Shown here in pieces: positions 36,941-49,496 of a stretch of DNA of 64,000 bases. Within the stretch, counting starts at the first letter, position 1. Every line of letters starts with the position of its first letter. This DNA comes from Nitrospiraceae bacterium (lineage in GTDB: Bacteria; Nitrospirota; Thermodesulfovibrionia; UBA6902). Under the pieces are notes generated by a model. It was not told the origin of the DNA and did not search any database. It saw only the letters and a program-made list of their open reading frames with translations. The position numbers and the translations under genes are program-made. The DNA lies in contig QZIL01000093.1 in NCBI GenBank assembly GCA_003599025.1, positions 24,512 to 88,511 of the forward strand. The letters run 5' to 3'.

Positions 36941-37333
36941 ATGTCCGATTTTGTAAAAGACGACATAGCACTTGCCAATGCTGTAGGCGCAGGCATTACT
37001 CATTCGTGTGAGTCGTTTGTGGAAGAATATACCGACCTTGTGCTGTCCAGGGTATGGAACCTTGCAAAGACTCACTGCGGACATCCTGCCAGAGAAAGAG
37101 TATGTTCTCTTGTCATACTTCAGAAACAGAGGAAAGGCTCTGATTATTACGTTGAAGACCAGTGTGATGACTGCCTGGACTCATACATATGGTTTTTTGA
37201 TTTCCTGAAAAGAAAGGTCAAGACATATAAAGGGACCAATAACTGCCGTCTCAAGACATATGTCTGGTCATTGGTCAACTCCAACTCTACATATATTGAA
37301 TGGTTAAGGTGGAAATATGGAAGGGCCTTTTAG
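36941..37333 (+). CDS. sigma-70 family region-2-like protein with Cys-rich insertion (possible split sigma factor, part 1)
   Basis: 130 aa; FVEEYTDLVLSRVW...TYVWSLVNSNSTYIEWLRWK resembles sigma70_r2; Cys cluster HSCES..HCGHP..C..DQCDDC. Confidence 0.45.
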   Translation: MSDFVKDDIALANAVGAGITHSCESFVEEYTDLVLSRVWNLAKTHCGHPARERVCSLVILQKQRKGSDYYVEDQCDDCLDSYIWFFDFLKRKVKTYKGTNNCRLKTYVWSLVNSNSTYIEWLRWKYGRAF

Positions 37334-37928
37334 CAAAACCGTCATAGAGAGGTTCCCGTCAGTAATTAAAGCCCTGAATGAAACCTGTCAGCAGGCTTTC
37401 ATATATCTGCGTTTAAGAAAAACAGAAACAGAAATATCAAGGCTGCTTAATCTGACTATTGATGATACTCGGGAAATGATAGAAACAGTCCGGAATGAAC
37501 TCATCAGGGCCGGTCTGCTCGACCTGATAGAAGATCCACGCTTTGTACCGATACACTCGGACGACCCTGACCTGCCTGACCTGCCGATTGAGGCAGGGGA
37601 ACTTGCTGCAGACAGCAGACTTATTGTCAGTGAATTCTTCTCACATCTCAAGGATGCAGTCACTAAGCTTCATGGTCATCAGACCAATCTGTTACGGCTG
37701 AGATACAAACACCAGCTTTCGGCCAAAGATATACTGGGGTTCTGCAAACATATTGGGACAAGCCTTGTCCCCGGCAGAGATGTTTCAGAACTGAAAGAAC
37801 AGGATGTCTTCTATGCACTCAATACAGCAGTAAAAGAGGTCCTTAAACAGCTGAAGTCCCGGTACAAGGGAGAAGAATCATTCAGTACGGAGAACCTCAA
37901 ATACATCTTTGAAGAGATTGGCTTGTGA
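37317..37928 (+). CDS. sigma-70 region-4-like protein with duplicated HTH (possible split sigma factor, part 2)
   Basis: 203 aa; +1 frame and 17-nt overlap with previous ORF; two region-4-like segments (QQAFIYLRLRKTETEISRLLNLTIDDTREM and NLLRLRYKHQLSAKDILGF). Confidence 0.45.
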   Translation: MEGPFSKTVIERFPSVIKALNETCQQAFIYLRLRKTETEISRLLNLTIDDTREMIETVRNELIRAGLLDLIEDPRFVPIHSDDPDLPDLPIEAGELAADSRLIVSEFFSHLKDAVTKLHGHQTNLLRLRYKHQLSAKDILGFCKHIGTSLVPGRDVSELKEQDVFYALNTAVKEVLKQLKSRYKGEESFSTENLKYIFEEIGL

Positions 37929-37981
37929 GAGGTTTAAATCTCCAGCATCCTGTCCGTCTAATTAAGAACGGGAGGTAATAT

Positions 37982-38875
37982 ATGGAACATATAAGTCTTG
38001 AAAAAATATTATCTTACACCGGGAAACGGCTCGATGACCGGGAGGCCCGTGAAGTTGAGGGGCATCTGGCAACATGTGAAAGGTGTCATGAGGTGTTTAT
38101 GGGCCTGAATTCAGCCGGAATTGCGGTGGGCAGGGCCTTTGATCCGGAACCTGCTACATCTTTATGCCCGGAAGACTGGGAGATGGCTGCACTGGTCCGG
38201 AAGGAACTTCCCTCCCAAACTGCAGAAAAGATAAAGACCCATTTGAAGGATTGCGGTTTCTGCGTTGACAGGGCTGCCGGATATTATAAGGCCTTGCATT
38301 TTGAAAGGCCTCCATTTATAACCCCTGAACAGTGGAAACATAAGGCCGTTCAGGGCATGGAAAACAGGCATGCAGTTATGGAGGAAGCAAAGGTTTCATT
38401 AATGCAACGCATTTTGTCTTCTTTCTCACAGATGACATCACCGCTGCCTGCTGTTGCCGGACTGGCTATAGCATTGCTCGCAATTGCCGTAATTACATGG
38501 ATCATCCTGCCGGGGAAAGGTACTCTGCAGGCCCTTGCATCAAATGAGACCCTGCTCATGAGGGATTCCGAAATCCCTTCATCGCTCGGTTTTTCCGGGA
38601 CTGATGATATAAGGGAAGTCAGCAAGATGGACATATCCCTTAACGGGAAGGAAATAATATTCATGTGGAAACCCATAGAAGGGGCGGTTGAATACAACTT
38701 CACGCTCATGGAAGGAAAACATCCTGTCTATGATGTGAAGACAGGCAACGGCGCACTGGTTGCTTTAAGCAATGAACTGATAGAGACACATACGACGTAT
38801 AACTGGCTTATTACCGGCAGGACAGCCGATAACAGATATTTTGAATATAAGGGCAACGTTGTACTGGTCAAGTAA
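37982..38875 (+). CDS. zf-HC2 anti-sigma factor, membrane-spanning
   Basis: RBS gggagg; HLATCERCHE and HLKDCGFCVD zinc-finger motifs; single TM (AVAGLAIALLAIAVITWIIL); periplasmic C-terminal domain. Confidence 0.6.
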   Translation: MEHISLEKILSYTGKRLDDREAREVEGHLATCERCHEVFMGLNSAGIAVGRAFDPEPATSLCPEDWEMAALVRKELPSQTAEKIKTHLKDCGFCVDRAAGYYKALHFERPPFITPEQWKHKAVQGMENRHAVMEEAKVSLMQRILSSFSQMTSPLPAVAGLAIALLAIAVITWIILPGKGTLQALASNETLLMRDSEIPSSLGFSGTDDIREVSKMDISLNGKEIIFMWKPIEGAVEYNFTLMEGKHPVYDVKTGNGALVALSNELIETHTTYNWLITGRTADNRYFEYKGNVVLVK

Positions 38876-38918: not shown

Positions 38919-40610
38919 ATGAGAAACAAAATTATTGTGGCCTTTGCTCGACAGCTAAACATCTTATGTTCTCATTTTCTATTTATTGCAATCTTCATGG
39001 CCTTTGCCTCTTCAGGGGCCTTTGCCGAAGACAGGGGAAGAAAGGAATTCTGGATAAACAAATACGGAATAACAAAAGAATACAGGTATACTGCGCGGGC
39101 ATACGCAGTGTTTGAGAGGGTCCTTGCTGCAGCCGACAGGCGGACCGGGATTGAACCTGCTTTATATATTGTGGATTATGATAAAACACCCTGGGCGCAG
39201 GCCCTTGCCGACGGTTCAATAATCCTGTCGAGAAAGGGCCTTGAATTTTGCTACAGCAGACAGGCCCCTGAAGACGGTGACTCGAGGCTGGCCTTTGTAA
39301 TAGGTCATGAGCTGGCCCACCAGTTTAACGGGGACTTCTGGCATTACAAATTCCTGAGAACAGCAGAAGACAGCGATGATAACATCCGGGCCTTTCAGGA
39401 CATAAAAGAACTCGCAAAGAGCACGGACATGCTTCTGGCCAAGGAACTGCAGGCAGACCAGTATGGCATTATTTTCGCCACAATGGCTGGTTACAACAGT
39501 GACAGGATCATTGCCGGTGACAGGAATTTTTTCCTTGAATGGGCTGAAAAAGAGACGCCTTCAGGCCGTCTGACCGAAAATCTCCGGTCCCTGTCCAGCA
39601 AAAGGGCAAAGGCTGTGTCAATGCGTCTCCAGGAAGTTTCGGACAGGATAGTCCTTTTTGATATGGGGGTCATCAGTTACCACCTTGGAAGGTTTGATGA
39701 GTCCCTGGTGCTTTTTAAAAGGTTTGCTTCCTTTTTCCCGGGCAGGGAGGTCTATACAAATGTCGGCACAATATACCTGCAGATGGCCTACAATAAATTC
39801 CGTATGGCAAGGAGTCCCGAGTCTTTTCCCTATGCACTCTCTTTCGGTATTGAAAAAAGGACGAGGGCCGAGTCTATTGATATTGCTTCAAAGGGCTTTA
39901 CAGAAACCGGGTACCGGGAATATAATGAGCTACTTCACATCGCGACCGATAATCTGAAAAAGGCGATTGAATATGATCCGTTTTACCACGAGGCAAAAAA
40001 CAATTTAGGATGCGCCTATATTATGGAAAACAGATATTATGACGCGGTATCTGTACTTGAGGATGCATTGAAGTCAGCACCTGATAGTGCTAAAATCCAG
40101 AATAATCTGGGGGTCGCCTATATTATGCTTGGACAATCAGTCGGCAGTAAGGGCCTTCTGGAAAAAGCGGAAAAAATGTTACTGGCTGCCCGGACCAGGG
40201 ACCGGAAGGCAGGCAGTAATTTCACTTCCTATCAGCGTATGTTTACGGATTTAAACAGCGGCCCTGAATCAGATAGTCCGATTGATGACCCGTTTGATGA
40301 TATTAATATTGAATTCAAGTCTTCTCCAAAATATAAACCTGAGATGAGTGTTTCTCCCGGGTACGGCCTTTCTTTGCTGGAAGTGATTTCTGACAGGGGG
40401 GATTCTGATCTGAAGGTTTTAAAGAAGGTCAGGGAAAATATATTCATCCTTGCCATGGGAGACAGAATTCGTCTGGTCTTATATAAAGAACCATCTCAAC
40501 TGATTACAAATATAAAAGGAGGTGAGCAGAGAAGCGTCTATGTGTCTGGCACGGGCAGGAACGGCGTTGTTATTTCAGTAAATACATCGCCTGATTATTT
40601 TGAATTTTAA
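38919..40610 (+). CDS. M48 family metallopeptidase with TPR repeats (BepA-like)
   Basis: signal peptide; HELAHQ zinc motif; C-terminal TPR-like repeats (NNLGCAYIMENRYYDA..., NNLGVAYIMLGQ). Confidence 0.7.
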   Translation: MRNKIIVAFARQLNILCSHFLFIAIFMAFASSGAFAEDRGRKEFWINKYGITKEYRYTARAYAVFERVLAAADRRTGIEPALYIVDYDKTPWAQALADGSIILSRKGLEFCYSRQAPEDGDSRLAFVIGHELAHQFNGDFWHYKFLRTAEDSDDNIRAFQDIKELAKSTDMLLAKELQADQYGIIFATMAGYNSDRIIAGDRNFFLEWAEKETPSGRLTENLRSLSSKRAKAVSMRLQEVSDRIVLFDMGVISYHLGRFDESLVLFKRFASFFPGREVYTNVGTIYLQMAYNKFRMARSPESFPYALSFGIEKRTRAESIDIASKGFTETGYREYNELLHIATDNLKKAIEYDPFYHEAKNNLGCAYIMENRYYDAVSVLEDALKSAPDSAKIQNNLGVAYIMLGQSVGSKGLLEKAEKMLLAARTRDRKAGSNFTSYQRMFTDLNSGPESDSPIDDPFDDINIEFKSSPKYKPEMSVSPGYGLSLLEVISDRGDSDLKVLKKVRENIFILAMGDRIRLVLYKEPSQLITNIKGGEQRSVYVSGTGRNGVVISVNTSPDYFEF

Positions 40611-40720: not shown

Positions 40721-41311
40721 ATGAAAAAAGCTGTGAGGTTATGGTTTGTCTTATTATCAGCAATGGTATTGATTTCAGGATGTGCAGGCAGCAAGAAAGT
40801 GACCGATATGACACCGATACAGGAACTTAAGGCCCCTGAATGGGTAATGAAGGGAAGCGGTGCATTTGGCGGGGAAAAGGGCAAGGTGTTTTACGGGGTG
40901 GCGTCAGCCTCAAGGATGCAGAACATTTCCCTTATGCGTACTGCCGCAGACAACCGGGCGAGGAATGAAGTCGCAAAGGTCTTTCAGTTTTACACAGCGT
41001 CTCTGATGAAAGATTACGCTGCATCTACCGTTGCAGGAGACCCTGATGTCAGCTCTGAGGAACAGCATGTTGAGCAGGCCATAAAGACAGTCACGTCAAT
41101 GACTCTGTCCGGTGTTGAAGTTGTAGACCACTGGCAGAACCCTGCCACTCAGGAATTCTTCGCCCTTGCCAGGCTGGACCTCAATTCATTCAAGGACAAC
41201 TTTGACAAGATGCAGACCCTGGACAAGAAGGTAAGAGATTACATCAGAGAAAACGCGGACCGCATGCACGAGGAACTCGAAAAAGAAGAGGCAAAAAAGG
41301 CGGGCCAGTAA
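40721..41311 (+). CDS. LPP20/FlgP-like lipoprotein
   Basis: RBS aaggagg; lipobox LISGC; PEWVMKGSG...GVASA...AADNRARNEVAKV LPP20-type core. Confidence 0.55.
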   Translation: MKKAVRLWFVLLSAMVLISGCAGSKKVTDMTPIQELKAPEWVMKGSGAFGGEKGKVFYGVASASRMQNISLMRTAADNRARNEVAKVFQFYTASLMKDYAASTVAGDPDVSSEEQHVEQAIKTVTSMTLSGVEVVDHWQNPATQEFFALARLDLNSFKDNFDKMQTLDKKVRDYIRENADRMHEELEKEEAKKAGQ

Positions 41312-41411
41312 CAGGTAAATTGACGGGTTGCAGGGGGTGACATTTGCTCTGCAGCCCGGACATAAATTCGAAGTTGCTGAGAAGGCCATAAGTATGATTA
41401 CAACTTGGTTC

Positions 41412-41487
41412 GTCATTCCCGCAATACGTTGAGCGGGAATCCATTTAAGGAACTGGATACCTGATTAAGGACTTTGGGTATGACAGT
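41412..41487. repeat. family-A element
   Basis: GTCATTCCCGCaatacgttgaGCGGGAATCC...GGGTATGACAG; related to the 52375 copy. Confidence 0.65.
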
Positions 41488-41545
41488 CAATAACGGATCA
41501 TACATATAAGCTTATTGATAGGTAATTAGGATATGTGAGGTTGCC

Positions 41546-41995
41546 ATGAAAAAACTTTTTCTGACATTAACAATAATTCTGTCTATGACCGGCACGGTCT
41601 TTGCCGGCCCTGAAAGAGTAACGCTGATTACAGAGGATGAAGGCGCCATGAAAGATGCCCCCCCAGGACTTTATGACGTGGGGAGGGTTCTTAACACCGG
41701 TCCTGAGATAAAGATTATTTCACCCGAAATTGCAGATGAATATCATCCCCCTGTTGACATTAACATTGTTTTTGAACCGACAGATGATGCGAAAGTCGAC
41801 ATGTCAAAGTTCAAGGTTGAGTATATTAAAATAATGTCTCTTGATATTACAGACAGGTTTTTGCAATACACAACTAAAGATGGGATAAGGATCAAGAATG
41901 CCGACTTCCCGAGAGGCAAACACAAATTGAAGGTCACTATCGGGGATGATCATGGCGGGATAACTGAGGAGATATTTACAGTCAAGCTGCTGTAG
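41546..41995 (+). CDS. secreted hypothetical protein
   Basis: 149 aa with signal peptide (TGTVFA/GPE); no family recognised. Confidence 0.45.
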   Translation: MKKLFLTLTIILSMTGTVFAGPERVTLITEDEGAMKDAPPGLYDVGRVLNTGPEIKIISPEIADEYHPPVDINIVFEPTDDAKVDMSKFKVEYIKIMSLDITDRFLQYTTKDGIRIKNADFPRGKHKLKVTIGDDHGGITEEIFTVKLL

Positions 41996-42191
41996 TTTTT
42001 TAGTGTTCCGGCGGTCTGCGGCGATCAGACAGAAGACTGCTGAAACCAATTGTCATTATTAGAAACTGTCATGCCCGTTCCGTGACAAAGCGCGGAACGG
42101 GTCTCCGGTTATTTAAAGAGCTGCTGCCTGTTCCATAAGTTATGACGCTGAGGACAGGTTTTACCGGAATTATAGAAAAAGGACACGAAGC

Positions 42192-42839
42192 ATGTTCAGA
42201 TTACAGTCTCTTTTTTCATTGCTGGTTTTTCTGATTGCATTGGCAGACGGTGCCTCTGCAGGGTCTGCTTATGACAATGTTTACGCGGAATACCCGAAAG
42301 ATAAATACCTTGTGGGTATAGGCGAGACCGGCAGGACCGGGAATTTCCTGAATGACAAAAGGGTTGCTGAGGTGCTTGCGAGGCTCGAAATTGCCAAGCA
42401 GATAAAGGTCAGGCTCAAAGAAGAAACCGTAGATATAATGTGTGAAGGCGGGGCAGCAAGGCTGTTCAAAGACATGCGCGAATGCAGAAATGAATTTGTC
42501 ATGGTAGTTGAAGTCACTGTCGATGAGTTTCTTTCGGGCTCAAAGATAGTCAGTCATTGGGAACAGGATGGAATTGTATATGCAGTAGCTGTACTGCCGA
42601 AGGCAGAGGCTGTCAAAGAACTTGATGACAGGTCAAAGGAGTCGGCAGACAGGACCAGGGAAAATATTGAAAAGGCCAAAAACGGAGACGACGGGGCTGC
42701 TGGCGAAGCACAAAGGGAATATATGAAAGCAGTGACATATGACAGGGAAAAAGAGATGCTTGACGGAGTCAGAAGCCGTTCATCGGACATGTTTGATGAG
42801 CTTGAGAAGGAGTTGGTGAAGCTGGGGGGTAAGGAATGA
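42192..42839 (+). CDS. LPP20-like secreted protein
   Basis: 215 aa; signal peptide; YLVGIGETG...AEVLARLEIAKQIKVRL core similar to 40721 and 45301 products. Confidence 0.5.
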   Translation: MFRLQSLFSLLVFLIALADGASAGSAYDNVYAEYPKDKYLVGIGETGRTGNFLNDKRVAEVLARLEIAKQIKVRLKEETVDIMCEGGAARLFKDMRECRNEFVMVVEVTVDEFLSGSKIVSHWEQDGIVYAVAVLPKAEAVKELDDRSKESADRTRENIEKAKNGDDGAAGEAQREYMKAVTYDREKEMLDGVRSRSSDMFDELEKELVKLGGKE

Positions 42840-45160
42840 AAACCATAAAGATGGCAATGCTGCTTTTGGTCCTTATTATGCCGGCATATGTTTATTCTGC
42901 CGACAACAAAAAAGATCCCTCTCAGAATGGGGAGAAAACTGACTTCAGGATATTTAAGGGCCATTCAGAGGAAGTTCTCACGATTGCCTTAAGTCCGGAC
43001 GGCCGGATGCTGGCATCGGGTGGTGAAGATGAAATTGTTATTCTCTGGAATGTATCCACCGGAGAAAAGATAAGGACGCTCAAGGGACACTCGGGCCATG
43101 TTACGGCACTGTCCTTCAGTCCTGCCAACCAGACACTGGCTTCTGGAAGCAAGGACAAGAAGATAATTATATGGGATGCAGCTACCGGTGAGAAGATAAA
43201 GGACTTCAGTGACGACAGCTTCGATGCTGTCCTGTCAATTGCCTTCAGTCCTGACGGCAAAAGCCTTGCGGTCGGAAGTGAGGAGGAAACCATTACCTTA
43301 TGGGACCCGGAATCTGGAAAGACAATAAGAACTCTGAAGGGACATTCAGATGAAGTCTGTTCCCTGGCCTTCAGCCCAGACGGAAAATTGCTCGCCTCAG
43401 GCAGCGGTGATAAAACAATTATTATATGGAACCCTGTGACCAGCGAAATCCGCAACACCCTGAAAGGCCACAAAGATACGGTAAACTCTGTGGCGTTCAG
43501 TCCCGATGGCCGGGTGTTGGCCTCTGGTAGTGAGGACAGGACAATCGCCCTCTGGAATATTGCTTCCGGGGAAAAAATAAATATGCTGACTGACAATAAA
43601 GACTCTGTGCAGTCTGTTGCCTTCAGTCCTGATGGAATGCTTCTCGTCTCAGGCAATGAGGACGAAACCGTTACCATATGGGACGCGCAGACCGGAGGTA
43701 AACTAAAAATTCTTTCAGGGCATAAGGACATGATTACATCAGTTATATTCAGTCTGGATGGAAGCTCCCTTATATCAGCCGGTGAGGACAGAAATATAAT
43801 TGTCTGGAATACCGGCTACAGGACCTCATTCGCAGGTCCGCCGGCATCTGTCCCCTCACCCGCTGCTCCCCTGTCGGCAACAAAGGCCCCGGCAAATAAA
43901 ATCCCGGAAGTCAAGGTCCCGACTGTTAAAACCCCGGCATTTGCCCCTAATCTCCCTGTTCTGGCTGCGCCTGAACTGATGTACGATGTCAGGGTGGATG
44001 ATGCGAATGGCAACGGGATTTTCGAGGGAGGAGAAACTATCAAAGTGACAGTGAATATTGAAAACAGGGGCAAGGGTGCTGCCGAGGCTGTTGAGATATT
44101 GGTGTCCGGCAATAATTCACTGATATACTGCCTTGGAAACAGCAGGGTTGTGGGCGATGTTGGCCCCGGCAGTAAAAAAGATGTAATCCTGCAATGCACT
44201 CTGCCCACTCGCCTTAAGGCTGAAACAGCCCACATTTCTCTGGAACTGGCAGAGCAGAGGGGTTATTCACCCGCGGAAATAAAGTCCTTTACTGTTGCCA
44301 TGAAACCAGCTGATATAATAAAGACCGAGCACATAATTTCCCGGCATATAGATGTGGATGTGGTCCCTGCAAAAAACAGTAATTTCAGGAGGGACAATTC
44401 ATATGCTCTTGTAATAGGGATCAGCAATTATCGTGACAAGGAAATTCCTCCGGTCAAATACGCAAAATCAGACGCGGAGAAATTTGCAAAGTACCTCGAA
44501 AATATCGGAGGGGTCCCGGCAAAGAACATCAAGCTGGTCACTGACGAGATGGTGACCAAGGGTGACATTGAAGCATATATCGAAGACTGGCTGCCGAGAA
44601 GGATAAAAAAAGATTCCGAGGTCTTTGTTTATTATGCCGGACACGGTACTCCTGACCCCCGTACCGGTGAGGCATATATTGTACCATATGACGGAAATCC
44701 TGATTACAAATCAAAGCTCTATCCCCTTAAAAGGATGTATGCCTCTTTAAACAAGCTGCCGTCAGAACAGGTTGTTGTTATGCTGGATTCCTGTTTCTCC
44801 GGAGGAGGGGAGAGGGGTGTAATGAGTCAGGGGACCAGGCCTGTAAGTCTGTCTGTTGAGAACCCTATCCTGGCCGGAGGGAAGGTTTTTGTACTTGCTT
44901 CAGCTTCAGGGACGCAGATAAGTTCAGATTTTGATAAGGTAAAACACGGATTATTTACTTATTATCTTCTTAAAGGGATGAAGGGCGATGCGGACGAAGA
45001 CATGAACGATAAAATAGAGCTTCAGGAACTCTATAAGTATGTAAAGCATAACGTCTCTGAGACCGCATCATCTGAACTGAACAGAGAACAGATGCCTGTG
45101 CTTCTGCCTGATATGGAGCAGCACAGACCTGCAGCGATCGAAATAACAAGGGTGAAGTAG
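42836..45160 (+). CDS. secreted WD40-repeat / CARDB-like / caspase (peptidase C14) fusion protein
   Basis: 774 aa; signal peptide; seven WD40 blades (LASGS.D..I.IWD); CARDB-like middle; C-terminal caspase fold with His (YYAGHG) and Cys (LDSCFSGG) dyad. Confidence 0.8.
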   Translation: MKTIKMAMLLLVLIMPAYVYSADNKKDPSQNGEKTDFRIFKGHSEEVLTIALSPDGRMLASGGEDEIVILWNVSTGEKIRTLKGHSGHVTALSFSPANQTLASGSKDKKIIIWDAATGEKIKDFSDDSFDAVLSIAFSPDGKSLAVGSEEETITLWDPESGKTIRTLKGHSDEVCSLAFSPDGKLLASGSGDKTIIIWNPVTSEIRNTLKGHKDTVNSVAFSPDGRVLASGSEDRTIALWNIASGEKINMLTDNKDSVQSVAFSPDGMLLVSGNEDETVTIWDAQTGGKLKILSGHKDMITSVIFSLDGSSLISAGEDRNIIVWNTGYRTSFAGPPASVPSPAAPLSATKAPANKIPEVKVPTVKTPAFAPNLPVLAAPELMYDVRVDDANGNGIFEGGETIKVTVNIENRGKGAAEAVEILVSGNNSLIYCLGNSRVVGDVGPGSKKDVILQCTLPTRLKAETAHISLELAEQRGYSPAEIKSFTVAMKPADIIKTEHIISRHIDVDVVPAKNSNFRRDNSYALVIGISNYRDKEIPPVKYAKSDAEKFAKYLENIGGVPAKNIKLVTDEMVTKGDIEAYIEDWLPRRIKKDSEVFVYYAGHGTPDPRTGEAYIVPYDGNPDYKSKLYPLKRMYASLNKLPSEQVVVMLDSCFSGGGERGVMSQGTRPVSLSVENPILAGGKVFVLASASGTQISSDFDKVKHGLFTYYLLKGMKGDADEDMNDKIELQELYKYVKHNVSETASSELNREQMPVLLPDMEQHRPAAIEITRVK

Positions 45161-45194
45161 AGGTACTAAGACATAACTTAACAAAGCCTCATGC

Positions 45195-45253
45195 CCGTCA
45201 TTCCGGGCTTGACCCGGTCGGATCGACTCGCCCCGACCTTCGCGGGAATGACA
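45195..45253. repeat. family-A element variant
   Basis: cGTCATTCCGGG...GGTCGGatcgactcgcCCCGACC...CGCGGGAATGAC. Confidence 0.6.
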
Positions 45254-45300
45254 AACAAGGTGGCTTTCAATATGTAGTTGTTAGTAAGGGGTAGGTTCAC

Positions 45301-45837
45301 ATGAAGTTATTTCTGACATCGATTTTTCTTTTTTCATTCTTGACAGCCTGCCAGTCAGCCTATGTCAAACCATCAGGCCCGCCGCCTGCCTGGGTGGTCA
45401 GGACGCCTGATATGAAAGGCATGATCTGTGCTGTCGGGGCAAGCGGTCCCACGTATTTCAGGGATGACGCGCAGTTGAATGCTGCTGAAAACGCGAGGGC
45501 GGAGCTCGCAAGGACGATAAGCGTCAGCATTAAGAACATAATGGTCGAGATGACTTCTGACAAAGGCAGCTATATTGATGACGCGACCGTAAGTGAGGTC
45601 TCGTCTTGGGCCACCTCGGCAGTTGTGGAAAATTCCAGCATAATGGAGTACTGGTATGACGCGGACGGTCAGGTGTCGAAAAAGGATTTCACCTATGCCC
45701 TTGGCTGCATGCCGCGCAAGTTTGACAGGAAGTCTCTTGAGGCGCACATGTCTGATTCACATTCTGCCGGCCAGGGGAGTCATAATGACATCAGCCGCGC
45801 GGCAGATGAGATACTCAGGCAGCTTGAGGGGGAGTGA
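45301..45837 (+). CDS. LPP20/FlgP-like lipoprotein
   Basis: 178 aa; lipobox LTAC; PPAWVVRTPD...AVGASG...AAENARAELARTISVSI. Confidence 0.55.
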   Translation: MKLFLTSIFLFSFLTACQSAYVKPSGPPPAWVVRTPDMKGMICAVGASGPTYFRDDAQLNAAENARAELARTISVSIKNIMVEMTSDKGSYIDDATVSEVSSWATSAVVENSSIMEYWYDADGQVSKKDFTYALGCMPRKFDRKSLEAHMSDSHSAGQGSHNDISRAADEILRQLEGE

Positions 45838-45925
45838 ATGCTTATGTTGGTTCAATCATTCTGATTGAACTATAAAGCTAAATTATATGGAGCATCTCCG
45901 AAAAAGTGCTAATAAGCAGATGGTT

Positions 45926-45998
45926 GTCATTCCCGCGCAGGCGGGAATCCAGAGCCTTTGAAAGGACCAGATTCCGGTTTAAGGACTGCCGGAATGAC
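45926..45998. repeat. family-A element
   Basis: GTCATTCCCGCgcagGCGGGAATCC...gccGGAATGACag; overlaps the 5' leader of the FGE-like gene. Confidence 0.7.
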
Positions 45999-46007
45999 AG
46001 GAAGGGC

Positions 46008-47054
46008 ATGAAAAATATAATCCTGGCCATCATTATCTCTATGGTATTATCCTCTTATGCATTCGCTGCCGAGGTCAAGAACGTTGTCTCCTCCCAGTCA
46101 GGCAACCGCGTGCTCTTTGAATATGACCTGACCGGAGAAGAGAAAGAGGCTGACGTTAATATCACGATCACCGTCAACGGCACGGCCTATAGCGCAGAAA
46201 AGCTCTACCTTGAGGGTGATTATGGGAAGGTCAGCTTAGGCAAGGGTAGGAAGATATACTGGAACGTGCTCCAGGACTTTCCGAGGGGACTTAATACGAC
46301 GTTTGAGTGGGAGATAACTGAGGGAGGCAAAGACTTCAAAGATCCGTTGACAGGAATGGAGTTTGTCTTTGTTAAAGGTGGGTGTTTTCAGATGGGGGAT
46401 ACGTTTGGCGATGGAGATGCGGATGCGAAGCCGGTACATGAGGTGTGCGTGGATGATTTTTATCTGGGGAAATATGAGGTGACTCAGAGGCAATGGAGAG
46501 AGGTTATGGGGAACAATCCTTCGTATTTCAAGAACTGTGGCGATGACTGCCCTGTGGAACAGGTGAGTTGGAACGATGTGCAGGAGTTCATTAATAAGCT
46601 GAATGAAAAGATAACCCCCCATAGTCCCCCCTTAGATAAGGGGGGAAGAAAAGGGGGGTACAGACTTCCTACAGAGGCGGAGTGGGAGTATGCCGTACGG
46701 AGCTGTGGGAAGAAGGAGGAGTACTCAGGTAGTGACAGTATTGACAGTGTGGCATGGTATGACAGTAATTCGGGAAGAAAGACACATCCTGTAGGGCAGA
46801 GAAGTCCTAATGGTCTCGGCATTTATGACATGAGCGGCAATGTATGGGAATGGGTACAGGACTGGTACGGGGAGAAATATTACGGTGAAAGTCCCAAGTA
46901 CAATCCTAATGGACCGAACAGTGGAACCGCTCGCGTGCTGCGCGGCGGGTCTTGGAGCAATATTACGAGGTATGCTCTCACATCCAATCGCGTCAGGTAC
47001 CATCCCGACTACAGATTCAACAACGTCGGGTACCGCCTTCTTTGGACTAAGTAG
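46008..47054 (+). CDS. secreted FGE-sulfatase (SUMF1/EgtB/PvdO) fold protein, apparently lacking the catalytic Cys pair
   Basis: signal peptide; N-terminal beta domain; FGE core (YRLPTEAEWEYA...NGLGIYDMSGNVWEW...RVLRGGSW...VGYRL). Confidence 0.8.
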   Translation: MKNIILAIIISMVLSSYAFAAEVKNVVSSQSGNRVLFEYDLTGEEKEADVNITITVNGTAYSAEKLYLEGDYGKVSLGKGRKIYWNVLQDFPRGLNTTFEWEITEGGKDFKDPLTGMEFVFVKGGCFQMGDTFGDGDADAKPVHEVCVDDFYLGKYEVTQRQWREVMGNNPSYFKNCGDDCPVEQVSWNDVQEFINKLNEKITPHSPPLDKGGRKGGYRLPTEAEWEYAVRSCGKKEEYSGSDSIDSVAWYDSNSGRKTHPVGQRSPNGLGIYDMSGNVWEWVQDWYGEKYYGESPKYNPNGPNSGTARVLRGGSWSNITRYALTSNRVRYHPDYRFNNVGYRLLWTK

Positions 47055-47276
47055 TTTATTAGTCTTTAGACTTTTTGCTTTTTTACACTTTGTTTTTTTG
47101 GGGTACAGGGGCATTGCCCCTGTAGAAAATAAATATGGAGGTAGGATAGGAGCACACTCCTCAGTCCCTTCTCGGAATCGAGTCAATACGACTTTATAGA
47201 GAAGAGATACAGTGAAACAACTTGAAATATGAAAAGTACATAAGTAATCTAATAAAAAATCATTAAATCGTTTATT

Positions 47277-47618
47277 ATGAAGAAGACAATAAAACCGCCT
47301 CTAAGAAAGTCTGTGCTGAACACCATATTAAAACGTCTGGTGGATAACCTTGACGTTGTCAAGATAATCCTATTTGGCTCCTATGCTTCAGGCAAGCCGA
47401 CAAAGGACAGCGACCTGGACCTTCTCATCATTCTGAATACCAAAGAAAAAGGGCTGAAACGCTATGCGATGGTCAGTGAGCTGCTTGAGCCGAGAAAAAT
47501 ACCGATGGACATCATTGTAAAGACGCCTGAAGAGATGAAGAGCAGGGCCAGGATGTTTGACCCATTTTTGAGAACGGTTCAGAAAACAGGGAAGATCCTC
47601 TATGAAAAACCAGCCTGA
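47277..47618 (+). CDS. nucleotidyltransferase (MNT-type antitoxin)
   Basis: 113 aa; LFGSYASGKPTKDSDLDLLIIL Pol-beta NTase motif. Confidence 0.8.
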   Translation: MKKTIKPPLRKSVLNTILKRLVDNLDVVKIILFGSYASGKPTKDSDLDLLIILNTKEKGLKRYAMVSELLEPRKIPMDIIVKTPEEMKSRARMFDPFLRTVQKTGKILYEKPA

Positions 47619-47988
47619 TGTCCTTGAATGGATATTGAAAGCAGAACAGGATTATGAGACTGCTGAAACAATGGCCCGCAGAAGGAAGAATCCTGTGCCT
47701 GATGTGGTCGGTTTCCACAGCCAGCAATGCATTGAAAAATATTTAAAGGCCTATCTCGTTTTGAAAAAGCTCGATTTTCACAAGACGCACGACCTGCTTG
47801 AACTCCTTGAAATAGCTCTCGCAAAAGATCCGCTCCTCGAAGGATACAGGGCCGACCTGCGACTGTTAAATCCATTCTCTGTTCAATTCCGTTATCCCGG
47901 TGAAAGCGCGACACTGGAAGAGTCAAAAACGGCATTGAAGGCCATGCGCAAGGTGCGGATGTTTATTAGAGAAAAGTTTAATCTGTAA
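47602..47988 (+). CDS. HEPN domain protein (toxin partner of MNT)
   Basis: 128 aa; overlaps MNT gene by 17 nt; HEPN fold with conserved ...FRYPG.. region. Confidence 0.75.
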   Translation: MKNQPDVLEWILKAEQDYETAETMARRRKNPVPDVVGFHSQQCIEKYLKAYLVLKKLDFHKTHDLLELLEIALAKDPLLEGYRADLRLLNPFSVQFRYPGESATLEESKTALKAMRKVRMFIREKFNL

Positions 47989-48005
47989 AGTCACAGGGAT
48001 GGGGC

Positions 48006-49397
48006 ATGTTTAAAAAATTATCTGCCGTTACATTAGCAATTATCCTTTCAGCCTCAATGGCTTTTGCCGAGAAAGGCTCTCTTAAGATCGGCATCCTTCC
48101 CGCGCCCCCAAACATTTCAGCGAGCGTGAAATTTACCGAGCCGTCAGGCAACAACATCCTCGACGCGGAGGAGACAGGCACGCTGACCATCATTATAAGC
48201 AATTCCGGGAAGGGGGACGCCTTTGACGTCACGGCTGAGCTAAAGGCGGACAAAAAGACCAGAGGCTTTACCTATAACAATACCGTATCTTTTGGCACGA
48301 TACCTGCCGGTAAGCAGTCATCGATGGACATTGAACTAAGGGCCGGGGAAGACATCCCCACCGATAATATAGCTTTCTCGATAACCGTAAAGGAGGCAAA
48401 CGGCTTTGACGCGGACCCGCTTAAGGTGGCGTTCAGGACAAAGTCCTTTGAGCCTCCAAGTCTCATTATCGCTGACATCGGCATAGACGACCAGAACGGC
48501 AATTCATCTGTCGAGCAGATGGAGATTGTGGTTGAGGGCGTAGACGCGCCGAAGGGAGAGATAAGGGTAGCAAAAGGTCTCAGCGTGGACATTGAACAGG
48601 GCCTGCCGGTCACAAAGACACAGAACAGGGACGCCTTTGCGGTGGTCATGGGCAACTCGGAGTACAAATACGCGAAGAACGTCGACTTTGCGGTAAATGA
48701 CGCTCAGATGGTAAAACGCTATTTGACCGAAGTCCTTGGCTTCAGGGAGGGCAATATCTTCATACTTGCCAACGCGACAAAAGGGGACCTTGAGCTCTAC
48801 TTCGGGACCAAAGACAATTTCAAAGGCAAACTCTTTAACCAGGTAAAGCCGGGCAGGTCGGACATTTTTATCTATTATTCAGGGCATGGCGCCCCGGGCC
48901 TGAAAGACAGGAAAGGCTACATCGTCCCTGTCGAGGCAGACCCGCAATATATCGAACTGAGCGGCTACCCGCTGGATGTCTTCTACAGCAACCTCTCGAA
49001 GCTTCCTGCAAAGTCCGTGACGGTAGTGACGGACGCGTGCTTTTCAGGCGCAGACATTTATGACAGCATCTCACCGATAGTCCTTGAGATAGACAACCCG
49101 GTCATAAACCTGAATAACGGAATCGTGCTTTCAAGTTCGACAGGAACTCAGGTCTCGACATGGTACAATGAGAAGAAGCACGGGATGTTCACGTACTTCT
49201 TTTTGAAAGCAATACACGACAGGAACGCGGATTATGATGGGAACAGGGAGCTTACATTTGATGAAATTTACCGGTATATTTCGGACAGGTCCGACGGCGT
49301 TCCCTATTACGCAAGAAGCATACATAATGTGGAGCAGACGCCTGTCATTCAGGGAAAGTATCAGGGCAGGGTGTTGGTGACGTATGAGGAGAAATGA
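48006..49397 (+). CDS. secreted caspase family protein (peptidase C14) with N-terminal CARDB-like domains
   Basis: 463 aa; signal peptide; His (IYYSGHG) and Cys (VTDACFSG) catalytic dyad. Confidence 0.8.
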   Translation: MFKKLSAVTLAIILSASMAFAEKGSLKIGILPAPPNISASVKFTEPSGNNILDAEETGTLTIIISNSGKGDAFDVTAELKADKKTRGFTYNNTVSFGTIPAGKQSSMDIELRAGEDIPTDNIAFSITVKEANGFDADPLKVAFRTKSFEPPSLIIADIGIDDQNGNSSVEQMEIVVEGVDAPKGEIRVAKGLSVDIEQGLPVTKTQNRDAFAVVMGNSEYKYAKNVDFAVNDAQMVKRYLTEVLGFREGNIFILANATKGDLELYFGTKDNFKGKLFNQVKPGRSDIFIYYSGHGAPGLKDRKGYIVPVEADPQYIELSGYPLDVFYSNLSKLPAKSVTVVTDACFSGADIYDSISPIVLEIDNPVINLNNGIVLSSSTGTQVSTWYNEKKHGMFTYFFLKAIHDRNADYDGNRELTFDEIYRYISDRSDGVPYYARSIHNVEQTPVIQGKYQGRVLVTYEEK

Positions 49398-49496
49398 AAA
49401 TAAACACACCCCTCTATCCCTTCTTTTTAGAGGGGATGAATTGGAATGGCCCAAAAAATGAAAACAGTGTCCGTCAAAATATTTAAACACATAAAT

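What the first reader, a model, noticed from the sequence alone, without database searches (positions are those of the whole stretch)
36941..38875. Atypical sigma factor encoded in two overlapping frames (Cys-rich region 2; duplicated region 4) with a double zf-HC2 anti-sigma factor
The first ORF (130 aa) looks like sigma-70 region 2 (FVEEYTDLVLSRVW ... TYVWSLVNSNSTYIEWLRWK) but has a Cys/His-rich insertion (HSCES, HCGHP, DQCDDC). The next ORF, in the +1 frame with 17-nt overlap, carries two consecutive region-4-like HTH segments. Downstream is a membrane anti-sigma factor with two HxxxCxxC motifs. This is either a programmed or erroneous frameshift in a single sigma-like gene, or a genuinely two-polypeptide sigma. 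The Cys cluster hints at redox or metal sensing. The module sits at the head of the caspase island.
Basis: partly seen in the sequence, partly recalled or inferred. Interest (0 to 1): 0.6.

Follow-up and report, generated by a model that had tools for sequence, protein, structure and literature searches.

The report
Naturally split two-gene sigma factor
A divergent RNA-polymerase sigma factor that is one protein in its distant relatives is encoded here as two overlapping, separately conserved genes next to a membrane anti-sigma factor with two zinc motifs, making it a likely second natural lineage of two-subunit bacterial sigma factors.

Summary
ORF1 (36941-37333, 130 aa) and ORF2 (37317-37928, 203 aa) overlap by 17 nt in the +1 frame. 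ORF3 (37982-38875) is a single-pass membrane protein with two HxxxCxxC motifs.

This is not a sequencing error. Twelve related split loci, about 50-82% identical (two pairs may be the same population), show the same junction. One further locus separates the two genes by 156 nt. Both ORFs are under purifying selection (dN/dS about 0.1-0.26).

More distant relatives are single 300-350 aa proteins, so the split looks like a derived gene fission. At least one lineage later re-fused through a net 19-nt deletion.

Profile and fold comparisons place the family in the sigma-70 superfamily, always below every curated cutoff:
- ORF1 is a sigma2 domain with a ~30-aa Cys-rich insertion (six invariant Cys and one His in the close clade).
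- ORF2 is an extra HTH at the sigma3 position, then an acidic linker, then sigma4.

A programmed +1 frameshift is unlikely because no slippery site is conserved.

The split or fused sigma, the anti-sigma and an M48/TPR protease form a conserved core ahead of the LPP20/caspase/trypsin island.

Verdict: a new variant of a known kind. Function is inferred, not shown.

The parts
36941..37333 (+). ORF1 (130 aa): sigma2-like subunit of the split sigma factor
   Evidence: ORF. 33 homologues of 118-158 aa. AF2 model pLDDT 83.5. The 14 best Foldseek PDB hits are all sigma2 domains or sigma factors (sigmaE region 2, prob 0.92, but E 0.6). 23 of 24 family members weakly match an RpoE-like sigma model (best E 2.7e-5, below cutoff). 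hhalign of the fused-family profile against sigmaE covers regions 1.2-2.4. dN/dS about 0.1-0.26.
37073..37174 (+). Cys/His-rich insertion in sigma2 (residues 45-78: H45 C46 ... C55 ... C75xxC78), between regions 2.1 and 2.2
   Evidence: These residues are invariant in 24 homologues. The segment is a gap in sigmaE in the profile alignment. AF2 confidence is low here (pLDDT 60-70). The insertion is absent from a Cys-less branch of the wider family. Metal binding is not tested.
37306..37312 (+). SD-like AAGGTGG, 4 nt upstream of the ORF2 start codon (inside ORF1 codons R-W)
   Evidence: Read directly from the sequence. It is AGGTGG in 7 split loci plus the window and the weaker AGATGG in the 5 others.
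37317..37333 (+). 17-nt overlap: the ORF2 ATG lies within the ORF1 Tyr-Gly codons, and the ORF1 stop is TAG
   Evidence: The geometry is identical in 12 of 12 split loci. In L011 a 21-nt to 2-nt replacement fuses the frames. In L015 the genes are 156 nt apart.
37317..37928 (+). ORF2 (203 aa): sigma3-position HTH, acidic linker and sigma4 subunit
   Evidence: 58 homologues, nearly all 202-205 aa. 21 of 29 family members hit Pfam Sigma70_r4_2 (best E 1.9e-7). The family profile matches the PDB sequence of FliA 1rp3 at E 4e-4. AF2 pLDDT 80.7. Foldseek top hits are SigD, SigB, sigma28, SigL and sigma32.
37353..37508 (+). HTH-A (ORF2 residues ~13-64): sigma4/LuxR-like helix-turn-helix at the sigma3 position
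   Evidence: AF2 helices 22-32, 37-44 and 48-64. The equivalent stretch matches the full Sigma70_r4_2 model in P0096 (34.5 bits) and P0084. In collinear FliA/WhiG alignments it falls on region 3. It is an insertion relative to sigmaE.
37509..37607 (+). Acidic, disordered linker (ORF2 residues 65-97), a candidate equivalent of region 3.2
   Evidence: pLDDT below 50 for residues 75-93. It aligns to the linker of FliA in the PDB profile hit.
37608..37865 (+). HTH-B, the sigma4 domain (ORF2 residues ~98-183), with a ~15-aa insertion before the recognition helix
   Evidence: Sigma70_r4_2/r4 hits at residues ~110-139 cover model positions 3-32. Foldseek match to SigL sigma4 (3hug): TM 0.81, rmsd 2.1 A. 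It aligns to sigmaE region 4.
37982..38875 (+). ORF3 (297 aa): membrane anti-sigma factor with two tandem ZAS-type motifs, one TM helix (~residues 155-176, nt 38444-38509) and a ~120-aa extracytoplasmic domain
   Evidence: Pfam zf-HC2 E 1.4e-8 with 2 stretches. NCBIfam RsrA-like and anti-sigma hits are sub-threshold. Motif 1 is at nt 38063-38086 and motif 2 at nt 38240-38263. Both are conserved in 7 loci and also next to the distant fused sigma in L017.
38919..40610 (+). M48-like metalloprotease with TPR repeats (HELAH motif, signal peptide); conserved partner gene downstream of the anti-sigma factor
   Evidence: TPR hits are above cutoff. Peptidase_M48 scores 19.3 bits against a cutoff of 20.3. 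Synteny is conserved in L003, L004, L006, L007, L009 and L011 and in L017. The start at ATG 38919 is inferred from the signal-peptide-like N-terminus.
40721..51817 (+). Downstream envelope/protease island: LPP20 x3, a 149-aa secreted protein, WD40, FGE-sulfatase, an MNT-HEPN pair, caspase C14, trypsin-like and DUF4384. It is the presumed regulon or operon of the sigma factor
   Evidence: Pfam hits. Partial synteny in related loci. Regulation by the sigma factor is inferred only.

Best explanation
ORF1 and ORF2 are the two subunits of a naturally split, highly divergent sigma-70-family factor.

**Origin.** An ancestral single gene of about 320-350 aa was cut at the sigma2/sigma3 domain boundary by a frame-shifting indel in the short inter-domain linker.

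**ORF1.** It is the sigma2 module, expected to contact the beta-prime clamp helices and to recognise and melt the -10 element. It carries a ~30-aa Cys/His-rich insertion between regions 2.1 and 2.2.

**ORF2.** It supplies three parts:
- an HTH at the sigma3 position
- an acidic linker like region 3.2
- sigma4, expected to contact the beta flap and the -35 element

**Expression and assembly.** The 17-nt overlap, with the ORF2 ATG inside ORF1's Tyr-Gly codons and an SD just upstream, gives translational coupling and so roughly matched amounts of the two chains. The two chains are proposed to reassemble on core RNA polymerase.

**Control.** Activity is held in check by the co-transcribed single-pass membrane protein ORF3. 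Its cytoplasmic part has two tandem zinc-type anti-sigma motifs. Release would follow an envelope or thiol/metal signal, possibly involving the adjacent M48/TPR protease. The sigma factor would then drive its own operon and the LPP20/caspase/trypsin envelope island.

**Shown here:**
- the split is real, conserved and under selection
- single-chain relatives and a re-fusion exist
- domain identities are supported at profile and fold level, but below curated cutoffs
- the sigma, anti-sigma and M48/TPR genes are syntenic

**Inferred:** RNA polymerase binding, assembly of the two chains, the anti-sigma interaction, the regulon and any role of the Cys cluster.
For: **The split is real.**
- Coordinates and the overlap are confirmed.
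- 33 ORF1-like proteins (118-158 aa; two further partial sequences of 79 and 85 aa) and 58 ORF2-like proteins (about 203 aa) come from Nitrospirota, Dissulfurispiraceae and Desulfatiglandales metagenome-assembled genomes.
- The junction is identical in 12 of 12 split loci.
- In L015 the two genes are separated by a 156-nt spacer, and ORF2 has its own SD.
- dN/dS is about 0.1-0.26 for both ORFs.

**Single-chain relatives link the two halves.**
- P0069, P0084 and P0090 are fused.
- Most of the 59 representatives found with the ORF1 profile are 300-350 aa, with the ORF1-like domain at the N-terminus.
- In an NJ tree the basal branches are fused, the split clade is derived, and P0069 is nested inside it. 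This fits its net 19-nt deletion.

**Sigma identity.**
- ORF2 family: Sigma70_r4_2 in 21 of 29 members, best E 1.9e-7.
- The ORF2 profile matches FliA 1rp3 at E 4e-4.
- Fused relatives align collinearly from region 2 to region 4 with the FliA/WhiG and sigma70-ECF models (E down to 1.4e-9). All named hits but one are sigma factors.
- hhalign of the family profile against E. coli sigmaE gives E 5e-5 over 160 columns.
- Foldseek: the ORF1 model's 14 best PDB hits are all sigma2 domains or sigma factors. The ORF2 model's top nine PDB hits are all sigma factors, and it matches SigL sigma4 at TM 0.81.

**Anti-sigma factor.**
- zf-HC2 is above cutoff with two stretches.
- The double motif is conserved.

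**Operon core.** The sigma, anti-sigma and M48/TPR genes are syntenic in close and distant relatives.

**Precedent.** In B. subtilis SigO-RsoA, sigma4 and sigma2 lie on separate polypeptides (PMC7826278, PMC8103513).
Against: - No member reaches the curated cutoff of any whole-protein sigma model (for example TIGR02937, 16.8-37.8 bits against 42.9).
- Pfam Sigma70_r2 hits none of the 24 ORF1 homologues.
- The PDB sequence profile search with ORF1 found nothing.
- Foldseek E-values are weak (0.6 or more for ORF1). hhalign probability against sigmaE is only 67%.
- The window's own ORF2 has no Pfam region-4 hit.
- No shared promoter motif was found upstream of ORF1 homologues.
- No complex model of ORF1 with ORF2 could be run.
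- The strictly conserved 17-nt overlap, and the TTT-TAG at the end of ORF1 in the window's closest clade, leave some room for a minor frameshift product.
- All sequences come from metagenomes, and there are no expression data.
Confidence: 0.65

Rival explanations
1. A programmed +1 ribosomal frameshift at the end of ORF1 (GCC UUU UAG C, resembling the prfB/RF2 site) yields a single-chain sigma factor. On this view the two-ORF appearance is a regulatory device rather than a two-subunit protein.
For: - In the window, L001 and L002 the last sense codon is UUU followed by UAG. A P-site tRNA-Phe could re-pair in the +1 frame, and that frame is exactly ORF2's.
- The overlap length is strictly conserved.
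- Single-chain homologues show that a fused protein is functional.
Against: - In 9 of 12 split loci the last sense codon is TAT or GTT before TAA or TAG, where +1 re-pairing is not possible.
- ORF2 always starts with its own ATG, preceded by AGGTGG in part of the loci.
- The ORF2 frame is closed by a stop just upstream of that ATG in most loci.
- L015 has a 156-nt spacer with stops between the genes and a separate SD.
- The SD-like element lies 15 nt from the UUU codon, not the ~3 nt seen in prfB (the prfB spacing is from general knowledge).
- The conserved overlap is explained by descent from one fission event, plus constraint from the invariant WKYGR residues.
Confidence: 0.07
2. The pair is sigma-related but does not act as an initiation factor. 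ORF2 could be a free-standing HTH regulator, or the pair could be a sigma mimic that titrates the anti-sigma factor as PhyR does. ORF1 would then be a Cys-rich sensor or adaptor.
For: - Every sigma HMM hit is below its curated threshold, and no Sigma70_r2 hit exists.
- HTH-A resembles LuxR/GerE-type HTHs (GerE 1fse hit).
- Sigma4 has an insertion before its recognition helix.
- PhyR-type sigma-like domains are known (PMC8103513).
Against: - Fused relatives align collinearly from region 1.2/2.1 through region 4 with the ECF and FliA/WhiG models and with sigmaE.
- The typical ECF sigma2 signature is retained (GD..A...FV..Y...V; YkG...L.TY.W....N....DWLRWKYGR).
- The gene lies next to a ZAS-type anti-sigma factor.
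- No receiver domain or other partner domain is present.
Confidence: 0.15
3. The split is a sequencing or assembly indel, or a decaying pseudogene, in a single sigma gene.
For: The two frames differ by one base, and single-chain homologues exist.
Against: - The same junction occurs in 12 split loci related to the window at about 50-82% identity (two pairs, L006/L007 and L003/L010, may be the same population).
- About 30-55 protein clusters have the split lengths.
- Both ORFs are under purifying selection.
- Reads of this assembly could not be inspected.
Confidence: 0.01

Closest known systems
Bacillus subtilis SigO-RsoA (YvrI-YvrHa) two-subunit sigma factor
   Same: The sigma2-type and sigma4-type functions lie on two separate polypeptides encoded by adjacent co-transcribed genes (PMC7826278, PMC8103513). 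It is the only characterised cellular precedent found in the literature searches.
   Different: - No sequence relationship was detected. No Pfam or NCBIfam hit named SigO or RsoA.
- The gene order is opposite. In the yvrI-yvrHa operon the sigma4 gene comes first. Here the order is collinear with an unsplit sigma gene (sigma2 first).
- Here the genes overlap by 17 nt, unsplit relatives and a re-fusion exist, and sigma2 carries a Cys-rich insertion.
- The regulator is a tandem-ZAS membrane anti-sigma factor.
- Function is untested.
ECF (group 4) sigma factors with ZAS anti-sigma factors (for example SigR-RsrA, SigW-RsiW, sigmaE-ChrR)
   Same: - The N-terminal ECF-like signature, sigma2 regions 2.1-2.4 and sigma4 align to sigmaE and to TIGR02937.
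- The partner is an adjacent anti-sigma factor with HxxxCxxC, one TM helix and an extracytoplasmic domain.
   Different: - An extra HTH domain lies between sigma2 and sigma4, giving a total of about 320-350 aa rather than about 170-200.
- There is a Cys-rich insertion inside sigma2.
- Scores are below the TIGR02937 cutoff.
- The sigma factor is split into two genes.
- The anti-sigma factor has two ZAS motifs in tandem instead of one.
Group 3 sigma factors (FliA/WhiG/sigma28 type)
   Same: The domain order is sigma2, sigma3, linker 3.2, sigma4. There are collinear sub-threshold alignments to TIGR02479 from region 2 to region 4, a FliA PDB sequence hit, and sigma28, SigD and SigB among the top fold hits for ORF2.
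   Different: - Scores are far below cutoff (about 18-30 bits against 189.6).
- The domain at the sigma3 position matches region-4 models rather than Sigma70_r3, apart from one weak r3 hit (E 0.08).
- The regulator is a membrane ZAS factor rather than FlgM.
- The context is unrelated to flagella.
Phage T4 gp55/gp33 (described as a split sigma factor)
   Same: Two separate RNA polymerase-binding proteins jointly replace a sigma factor (PMC12867686).
   Different: That system is viral and depends on the sliding clamp. gp33 is not a sigma4 homologue (general knowledge). The pair here is chromosomal, with recognisable sigma4 and sigma2 domains.
Cys-rich ECF sigma factors (CorE/CorE2, group ECF238) and type III-E CRISPR-associated RpoE-like sigma
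   Same: - Conserved cysteines in a sigma factor have been proposed or shown to sense metal or redox state (PMC7826278).
- The best named hit for ORF1 is the RpoE-like sigma model NF041236, matched by 23 of 24 members.
   Different: - In CorE-type factors the cysteines are in a ~20-aa C-terminal extension, not inside sigma2.
- NF041236 scores 16.9 bits against a cutoff of 100.
- None of the window's larger ORFs scanned against Pfam matched a cas family, and no Rfam family (including CRISPR repeats) matched.

Membership tests
Sigma-70 superfamily | A sigma2 domain (regions 2.1-2.4) is present | tested here: inconclusive
   - Pfam Sigma70_r2: no hit in any of 24 ORF1 homologues.
- PDB sequence profile search: no hit.
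- In favour: the 14 best Foldseek PDB hits of the AF2 model are all sigma2 domains or sigma factors, though E is 0.6 or more and TM is 0.45-0.61.
- In favour: 23 of 24 members weakly hit an RpoE-like model.
- In favour: hhalign against sigmaE covers regions 1.2-2.4 at E 5e-5, Prob 67%.
Sigma-70 superfamily | A sigma4 domain (regions 4.1-4.2 HTH) is present | tested here: met
   - Sigma70_r4_2 hits 21 of 29 ORF2-family members.
- Scores exceed the gathering score (25.7) in P0067 (31.0), P0079 (30.4) and P0044 (26.2) for HTH-B, and in P0096 (34.5) and P0084 (26.6) for HTH-A.
- The AF2 model matches SigL sigma4 at TM 0.81, rmsd 2.1 A.
- The window's own ORF2 is sub-threshold.
Sigma-70 superfamily | Binds core RNA polymerase and confers promoter-specific initiation | not testable with these tools
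   This needs biochemistry or in vivo data. All sequences come from metagenomes.
ECF (group 4) sigma factors | Only sigma2 and sigma4 joined by a short linker; about 170-200 aa; passes TIGR02937 or ECF models | tested here: not met
   - An extra HTH domain plus a 33-aa linker lies between sigma2 and sigma4. Unsplit relatives are 300-350 aa.
- TIGR02937 scores 16.8 bits for the window and up to 37.8 bits for fused relatives, against a cutoff of 42.9.
Group 3 sigma factors (FliA/WhiG) | Passes the FliA/WhiG models; sigma3 domain recognisable as Sigma70_r3 | tested here: not met
   - TIGR02479 scores 18-30 bits against a cutoff of 189.6.
- Sigma70_r3 appears only once, at E 0.08.
- Only the architecture (domain order) is similar.
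Two-subunit sigma factor of the SigO-RsoA type | Sigma2-type and sigma4-type modules on separate polypeptides encoded by adjacent genes | tested here: met
   - There are separate ORFs with their own start and stop codons in 12 overlapping loci and one non-overlapping locus.
- Both are under purifying selection.
Two-subunit sigma factor of the SigO-RsoA type | Sequence homology to SigO/RsoA, and both subunits required for transcription | not tested
   - No SigO or RsoA sequence was compared directly.
- No HMM hit carried those names.
- The requirement for both subunits needs experiments.
- The gene order differs from yvrI-yvrHa (PMC8103513).
ZAS (zinc-binding) anti-sigma factors | An HxxxCxxC motif with a fourth ligand (Cys or His) about 23-26 residues upstream, in an N-terminal cytoplasmic anti-sigma domain, encoded next to its sigma factor | tested here: met
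   - The feature is met twice: H3-x24-H28xxxC32xxC35 and C62-x24-H87xxxC91xxC94.
- Pfam zf-HC2 scores 35.1 bits against 22.2, with two stretches.
- The motifs are conserved in 7 loci and in L015 and L017.
- Zinc binding itself is not testable here.
Type III-E CRISPR-associated RpoE-like sigma (NF041236) | Passes the model cutoff and lies in a type III-E (gRAMP/TPR-CHAT/Csx30/Csx31) locus | tested here: not met
   - The score is 16.9 bits against a cutoff of 100.
- None of the window's larger ORFs scanned against Pfam matched a cas family, and no Rfam family (including CRISPR repeats) matched.
Programmed +1 frameshift genes (prfB type) | A conserved slippery codon before an in-frame stop, with a closely spaced upstream SD; no independent start for the downstream frame | tested here: not met
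   - The last sense codon is TTT in only 3 loci plus the window's clade, and TAT or GTT elsewhere.
- ORF2 has its own ATG in all loci.
- L015 has a 156-nt spacer.

The most novel reading that the evidence does not exclude
On this reading the split is functional. The free sigma2 subunit carries a metal or iron-sulfur/thiol centre (H45, C46, C55, C75xxC78, plus C23 and C102), and that centre decides whether it can join the sigma3-sigma4 subunit on RNA polymerase.

The holo-sigma would then be a two-input AND gate. One input is cytoplasmic redox or metal state, read by ORF1. The other is an envelope signal, read by the tandem-ZAS anti-sigma factor and the M48/TPR protease.

The second ZAS module of the anti-sigma factor may have co-evolved with the Cys-rich sigma2 insertion, so that each chain is captured separately. 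In the loci sampled, anti-sigma factors with two motifs occur only with CxxC-bearing sigma2 (9 loci). Factors with one motif or none occur with Cys-poor sigma2 (5 loci).
Probability: 0.15. Interest if true: 0.75.

Novelty: new variant of a known kind. Interest (0 to 1): 0.55.

Why it matters
Only one cellular two-subunit sigma factor, B. subtilis SigO-RsoA, turned up as characterised in the literature I could search. This family would be a second and independent case.

It also comes with its own evolutionary record. There are unsplit ancestors, one fission at the sigma2/sigma3 boundary that has been kept over deep divergence, a locus where the two genes have drifted apart, and at least one re-fusion. 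That gives a natural experiment on how sigma domains assemble on RNA polymerase without a covalent link. Synthetic biologists currently engineer this with split ECF sigma factors.

The family adds two further unusual features: a conserved Cys cluster inside sigma2 and an anti-sigma factor with two tandem ZAS motifs. It also gives a regulatory handle on the widespread but unexplained LPP20/caspase/FGE-sulfatase/DUF4384 envelope gene islands.

Practically, it shows annotators that these adjacent 'hypothetical proteins' in Nitrospirota MAGs should not be merged or flagged as frameshifted pseudogenes.

Tried and rejected
- **Promoter motif.** I aligned 260 nt upstream of 11 ORF1 homologues and counted bipartite 5-mer/5-mer motifs with 14-19 nt spacers. 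The best motif occurred in 4 of 11 sequences, against a maximum of 3 in shuffles. Nothing usable emerged. The sigma-70-type scan of 36500-39000 was at chance level.
- **Internal duplication of the two HTHs.** hhalign of HTH-A against HTH-B gave Prob 0.2%, so there is no evidence of duplication.
- **PDB sequence profile search with the ORF1 family.** No hits, even at E 10.
- **Pfam on ORF1 and its 23 homologues.** No sigma domain was found.
- **Genome-contig scan.** I ran it with the single ORF2 protein rather than an alignment and got only 4 loci. The metagenome scan with the alignment added 10.
- **Type III-E CRISPR link.** This was suggested by the best NCBIfam name for ORF1. I rejected it because the score is far below cutoff and none of the window's scanned ORFs matched a cas family.
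- **SigO-RsoA primary papers.** PMC2795558 and PMC5903212 are not held. Statements about that system rest on two papers that cite them.
- **One dN/dS pair.** ORF2 for L006 against L005 gave an inflated dN, probably from an unhandled gap, and I ignored it.


Full report
**1. What is in the sequence**

The three ORFs are exactly as described.
- ORF1 runs 36941..37333 (130 aa) and ends ...EWLRWKYGRAF-TAG.
- ORF2 runs 37317..37928 (203 aa). It starts at an ATG formed by the Tyr-Gly codons (TAT GGA) of ORF1, one base forward in frame. The genes therefore share 17 nt.
- An SD-like AAGGTGG lies 4 nt upstream of that ATG.
- ORF3 runs 37982..38875 (297 aa) and follows after 53 nt, with a GGGAGGT SD.

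ORF3 carries HLATCERC (residues 28-35) and HLKDCGFC (87-94). Each has a fourth potential ligand 24 residues upstream (H3 and C62). A hydrophobic span covers about residues 155-176, followed by a ~120-aa C-terminal domain.

Upstream are bamA, skp, lpxD, fabZ, lpxA and lpxI. Downstream are:
- an M48/TPR protein (HELAH motif)
- three LPP20 lipoproteins
- a WD40 protein
- an FGE-sulfatase-domain protein
- a caspase (C14)
- a trypsin-like protease
- a DUF4384 protein

The window is chromosomal DNA of a Nitrospirota MAG. ORF2 is 100% identical to a protein from a 'Nitrospiraceae bacterium' record.

**2. The split is real and old**

Database searches found 33 ORF1-like proteins. Almost all are 118-158 aa; two further partial sequences are 79 and 85 aa. 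They also found 58 ORF2-like proteins, almost all 202-205 aa. These come from Nitrospirota, Dissulfurispiraceae and Desulfatiglandales metagenome assemblies and reach down to about 45-50% identity.

I fetched 14 related loci and read the junction in each. All 12 split loci have the same geometry:
- the ORF2 ATG lies inside the TATGG of the invariant WKYGR
- the overlap is 17 nt
- the ORF1 stop comes two codons after GR

Two pairs (L006/L007 and L003/L010) may represent the same population.

The last sense codon is TTT in the window, L001 and L002. It is TAT in eight loci and GTT in one. The stop is TAG or TAA.

A thirteenth split locus (L015, NCBI GCA_040961635.1) has an ORF1 homologue ending ...WKFGRAF*. 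A 156-nt spacer containing a long inverted repeat follows. After it come a separate SD, the ORF2 homologue (P0091) and a double-motif anti-sigma gene.

Nei-Gojobori estimates give dN/dS of about 0.1-0.26 for both ORFs in five to six locus pairs.

A sequencing error or a decaying pseudogene is therefore excluded.

**3. Single-chain relatives, and the direction of change**

Three homologues are single proteins: P0069 (320 aa), P0084 (318 aa) and P0090 (298 aa). They join the two halves as ...WLRWKYGR-(2-3 aa)-RLP..I..L....

In L011 (P0069) the 21 nt that follow ...GGAAGGG in split relatives are replaced by 2 nt. This net loss of 19 nt restores a single frame.

I then ran an exhaustive HMM search with the ORF1 profile against 1.84 billion representatives.
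- It found only 59 proteins at E below 1e-3.
- Most are 300-350 aa, with the ORF1-like part at residues about 5-130.

An alignment of 28 of these shows the same overall architecture.

In an NJ tree of the ORF2-equivalent part the basal branches are all single-chain. The split forms make up a derived group. P0069 is nested among split sequences, next to P0046. This tree has no support values, so the count of events is provisional.

The most economical reading is one fission of an ancestral ~330-aa gene in the short sigma2/HTH-A linker. The fission has been kept for a long time and was reverted at least once.

**4. What the proteins are**

*The window's proteins on their own are almost invisible to curated models.*
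- ORF1 has no Pfam hit.
- ORF2 has no significant Pfam hit.
- NCBIfam gives only weak sigma hits: ORF1 residues 68-126 to an RpoE-like sigma model (E 0.0045), and ORF2 to FliA/WhiG (E 0.0016) and sigma70-ECF (E 0.004).

*Family-level evidence is much stronger.*
- 21 of 29 ORF2-family members hit Pfam Sigma70_r4_2 (best E 1.9e-7) and 17 hit Sigma70_r4.
- Several hits are above the gathering score.
- 23 of 24 ORF1-family members hit the RpoE-like model NF041236 (best E 2.7e-5), though none hits Pfam Sigma70_r2.
- The ORF2 profile finds FliA (1rp3) among PDB sequences at E 4e-4. The ORF1 profile finds nothing.

*The single-chain relatives give collinear alignments from region 2 through region 4.*
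- Against FliA/WhiG (TIGR02479): for example P0100 residues 90-264 to model positions 37-197, E 9e-7.
- Against sigma70-ECF (TIGR02937): E down to 1.4e-9.
- Essentially every named hit is a sigma factor, yet all are below curated cutoffs.

The result was E 5e-5, Prob 67%, over 160 aligned columns. The alignment shows four things:
- the ECF-type N-terminus (D..L...GD.A...FV..Y...V) aligns
- the Cys-rich segment is an insertion between regions 2.1 and 2.2
- the first HTH of ORF2 is an insertion relative to an ECF sigma factor
- the second HTH aligns with region 4

*Structure predictions.*
- ORF1: pLDDT 83.5, low only in the Cys insertion.
- ORF2: pLDDT 80.7, disordered at residues 75-93.
- For ORF1 the 14 best PDB hits are all sigma2 domains or sigma factors (sigmaE region 2, RpoS, SigC, SigW, SigB, SigI). 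The scores are weak (E 0.6 or more, TM 0.45-0.61).
- For ORF2 the best hits are SigD, SigB, sigma28, SigL and sigma32 over 175-199 columns. Its C-terminal domain matches SigL sigma4 at TM 0.81, rmsd 2.1 A.

I conclude that the pair is a very divergent sigma-70-family factor.
- ORF1 is sigma2.
- ORF2 is HTH-A at the sigma3 position, then an acidic linker like region 3.2, then sigma4.

*HTH-A.* It looks like a region-4/LuxR-type HTH by sequence. It matches the full r4_2 model in P0096 and P0084. However, only about 5-10 residues separate it from the end of region 2.4 in the unsplit proteins. It therefore cannot reach the flap and must sit where sigma3 sits. That last step is inference from known holoenzyme geometry. 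hhalign finds no sign that HTH-A and HTH-B are recent duplicates.

**5. The Cys cluster**

In the close clade C23, H45, C46, C55, C75, C78 and C102 are invariant.

In the wider family one branch keeps three of them (C46, C55, C75). Another branch has none. The cluster is therefore not needed for the fold.

A few members give faint hits to ferredoxin-type subunits, which reflects Cys spacing only.

I could not measure geometry because no coordinates were available and the model is low-confidence in this region. Whether the site binds Zn or Fe-S, or forms disulfides, is open.

**6. The anti-sigma factor and the operon**

*ORF3.*
- It passes Pfam zf-HC2 with two stretches.
- Both HxxxCxxC motifs, and the upstream H or C ligands, are conserved in seven related loci.
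- They are also conserved in L015 and next to the distant single-chain sigma P0097 in L017.

*Motif number in other branches*.
- Next to three Cys-less sigma factors (L018, L019, L020) the anti-sigma factor has one motif.
- Next to two three-Cys sigma factors it has one (L021) or none (L022).

This co-variation is suggestive, but the cases are not phylogenetically independent.

*Synteny.*
- The order sigma (split or fused), anti-sigma, M48/TPR, LPP20 is conserved in L003, L004, L006, L007, L009 and L011.
- The sigma, anti-sigma and M48/TPR genes are also together in L017, with an FGE-sulfatase gene next door.
- Caspase, WD40, trypsin-like and DUF4384 genes vary in order and presence.

The tight spacing suggests one operon starting upstream of ORF1.

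**7. Mechanism**

*Best explanation (confidence 0.65).* This is a two-subunit sigma factor.
- Translational coupling through the 17-nt overlap produces sigma2 and sigma3-sigma4 chains.
- The chains assemble on core RNA polymerase.
- The tandem-ZAS membrane protein sequesters them until an envelope or thiol/metal signal releases them.
- The regulon includes the sigma factor's own operon and the protease/lipoprotein island.

The reality of the split, the domain assignments (at moderate strength) and the synteny are shown. Everything biochemical is inferred.

*Rivals.*
- Programmed +1 frameshifting is attractive for the window's own GCC-TTT-TAG-C. It fails on the TAT/GTT loci, on the independent ATG and SD, and on L015 (confidence 0.07).
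- A non-initiating sigma mimic or a plain HTH regulator cannot be excluded, because every curated threshold is missed (0.15).
- Error or pseudogene is rejected (0.01).

**8. Comparison with what is known**

- The functional analogue is B. subtilis SigO-RsoA, where sigma4 and sigma2 are on separate polypeptides (PMC7826278, PMC8103513). I found no sequence link to it, the gene order is opposite, and no unsplit relatives are mentioned there.
- T4 gp55/gp33 is a looser analogue (PMC12867686).
- By sequence the family lies between ECF and group-3 sigma factors and passes neither set of models.
- CorE-type Cys-rich ECF sigma factors carry their cysteines in a C-terminal tail, not inside sigma2 (PMC7826278).
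- The literature searches found no description of this family or of a tandem-ZAS anti-sigma factor. Those searches cover open-access text only.
- Source annotations are 'hypothetical protein' or an automatic 'specialized sigma subunit'.

**9. Verdict**

This is a new variant of a known kind. It is of moderate interest (0.55). The evolutionary evidence for a natural, maintained sigma fission is clean, and the associated features are unusual. However, the family is rare, known only from metagenomes and functionally untested.

Noticed in passing
window ~36775-36801 (+), ~19580-19612 (+), ~54725-54760 (-); variants at 45194 (-) and 45991 (+): A REP-like hairpin element, GATTC[C/T]GGACAAGCCGGAATGACA, recurs in intergenic DNA. 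Its core GGAATGACAGG has 10 matches (up to 1 mismatch) against 1.2 expected by chance. Similar GGATTCCCG...CGGGAATGAC hairpins lie upstream of the ORF1 homologues in L003 and L011.
   Followed up: partly
window 36824-36837: A perfect 14-nt palindrome, GGTTGCCGGCAACC, lies in the lpxI-ORF1 intergenic region about 100 nt upstream of ORF1. Its function is unknown; it could be an operator or part of a terminator. The repeat finder did not report it.
   Followed up: no
window 47277-47618 and 47602-47988 (+): An MNT-type nucleotidyltransferase (PF01909, E 2.5e-15) and a HEPN-domain protein (PF05168, E 4.9e-24) form a pair inserted inside the island between the FGE-sulfatase and caspase genes. They look like a toxin-antitoxin module, and they also overlap by 17 nt.
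   Followed up: partly
ORF3 homologues in window, L003, L004, L006, L009, L011, L013, L015, L017 versus L018, L019, L020, L021, L022: The number of HxxxCxxC motifs in the anti-sigma factor tracks the cysteine content of the partner sigma2. CxxC-bearing sigma2 goes with two motifs (9 loci). Cys-less or three-Cys sigma2 goes with one motif or none (5 loci). The cases are not phylogenetically independent.
   Followed up: partly
L015:1868-2023: The 156-nt spacer that separates the two sigma genes in this locus contains a long inverted repeat (CCCCGTGGTCGCCTGACC ... GGTCAGGCGACCACGG). This suggests that a small hairpin element inserted between the formerly overlapping genes.
   Followed up: no
window 38841-38921: The mechanical ORF for the M48/TPR protein starts at TTG 38841, inside ORF3. 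The likely true start is ATG 38919 (MRNKIIVAFARQLNILCSHFLFIAIFMAFASSGAFA, signal-peptide-like), which leaves a 43-nt gap after ORF3.
   Followed up: partly
window 41546-41995 (+): A 149-aa protein with a signal peptide and no Pfam match lies between the first and second LPP20 genes of the island.
   Followed up: no
L017:3352-8796; L020:1108-6990: Distant single-chain members of the sigma family are also flanked by FGE-sulfatase, M48/TPR, TPR and very large WD40 proteins. The link between this sigma family and this type of envelope or protease island therefore extends well beyond the window's clade.
   Followed up: partly
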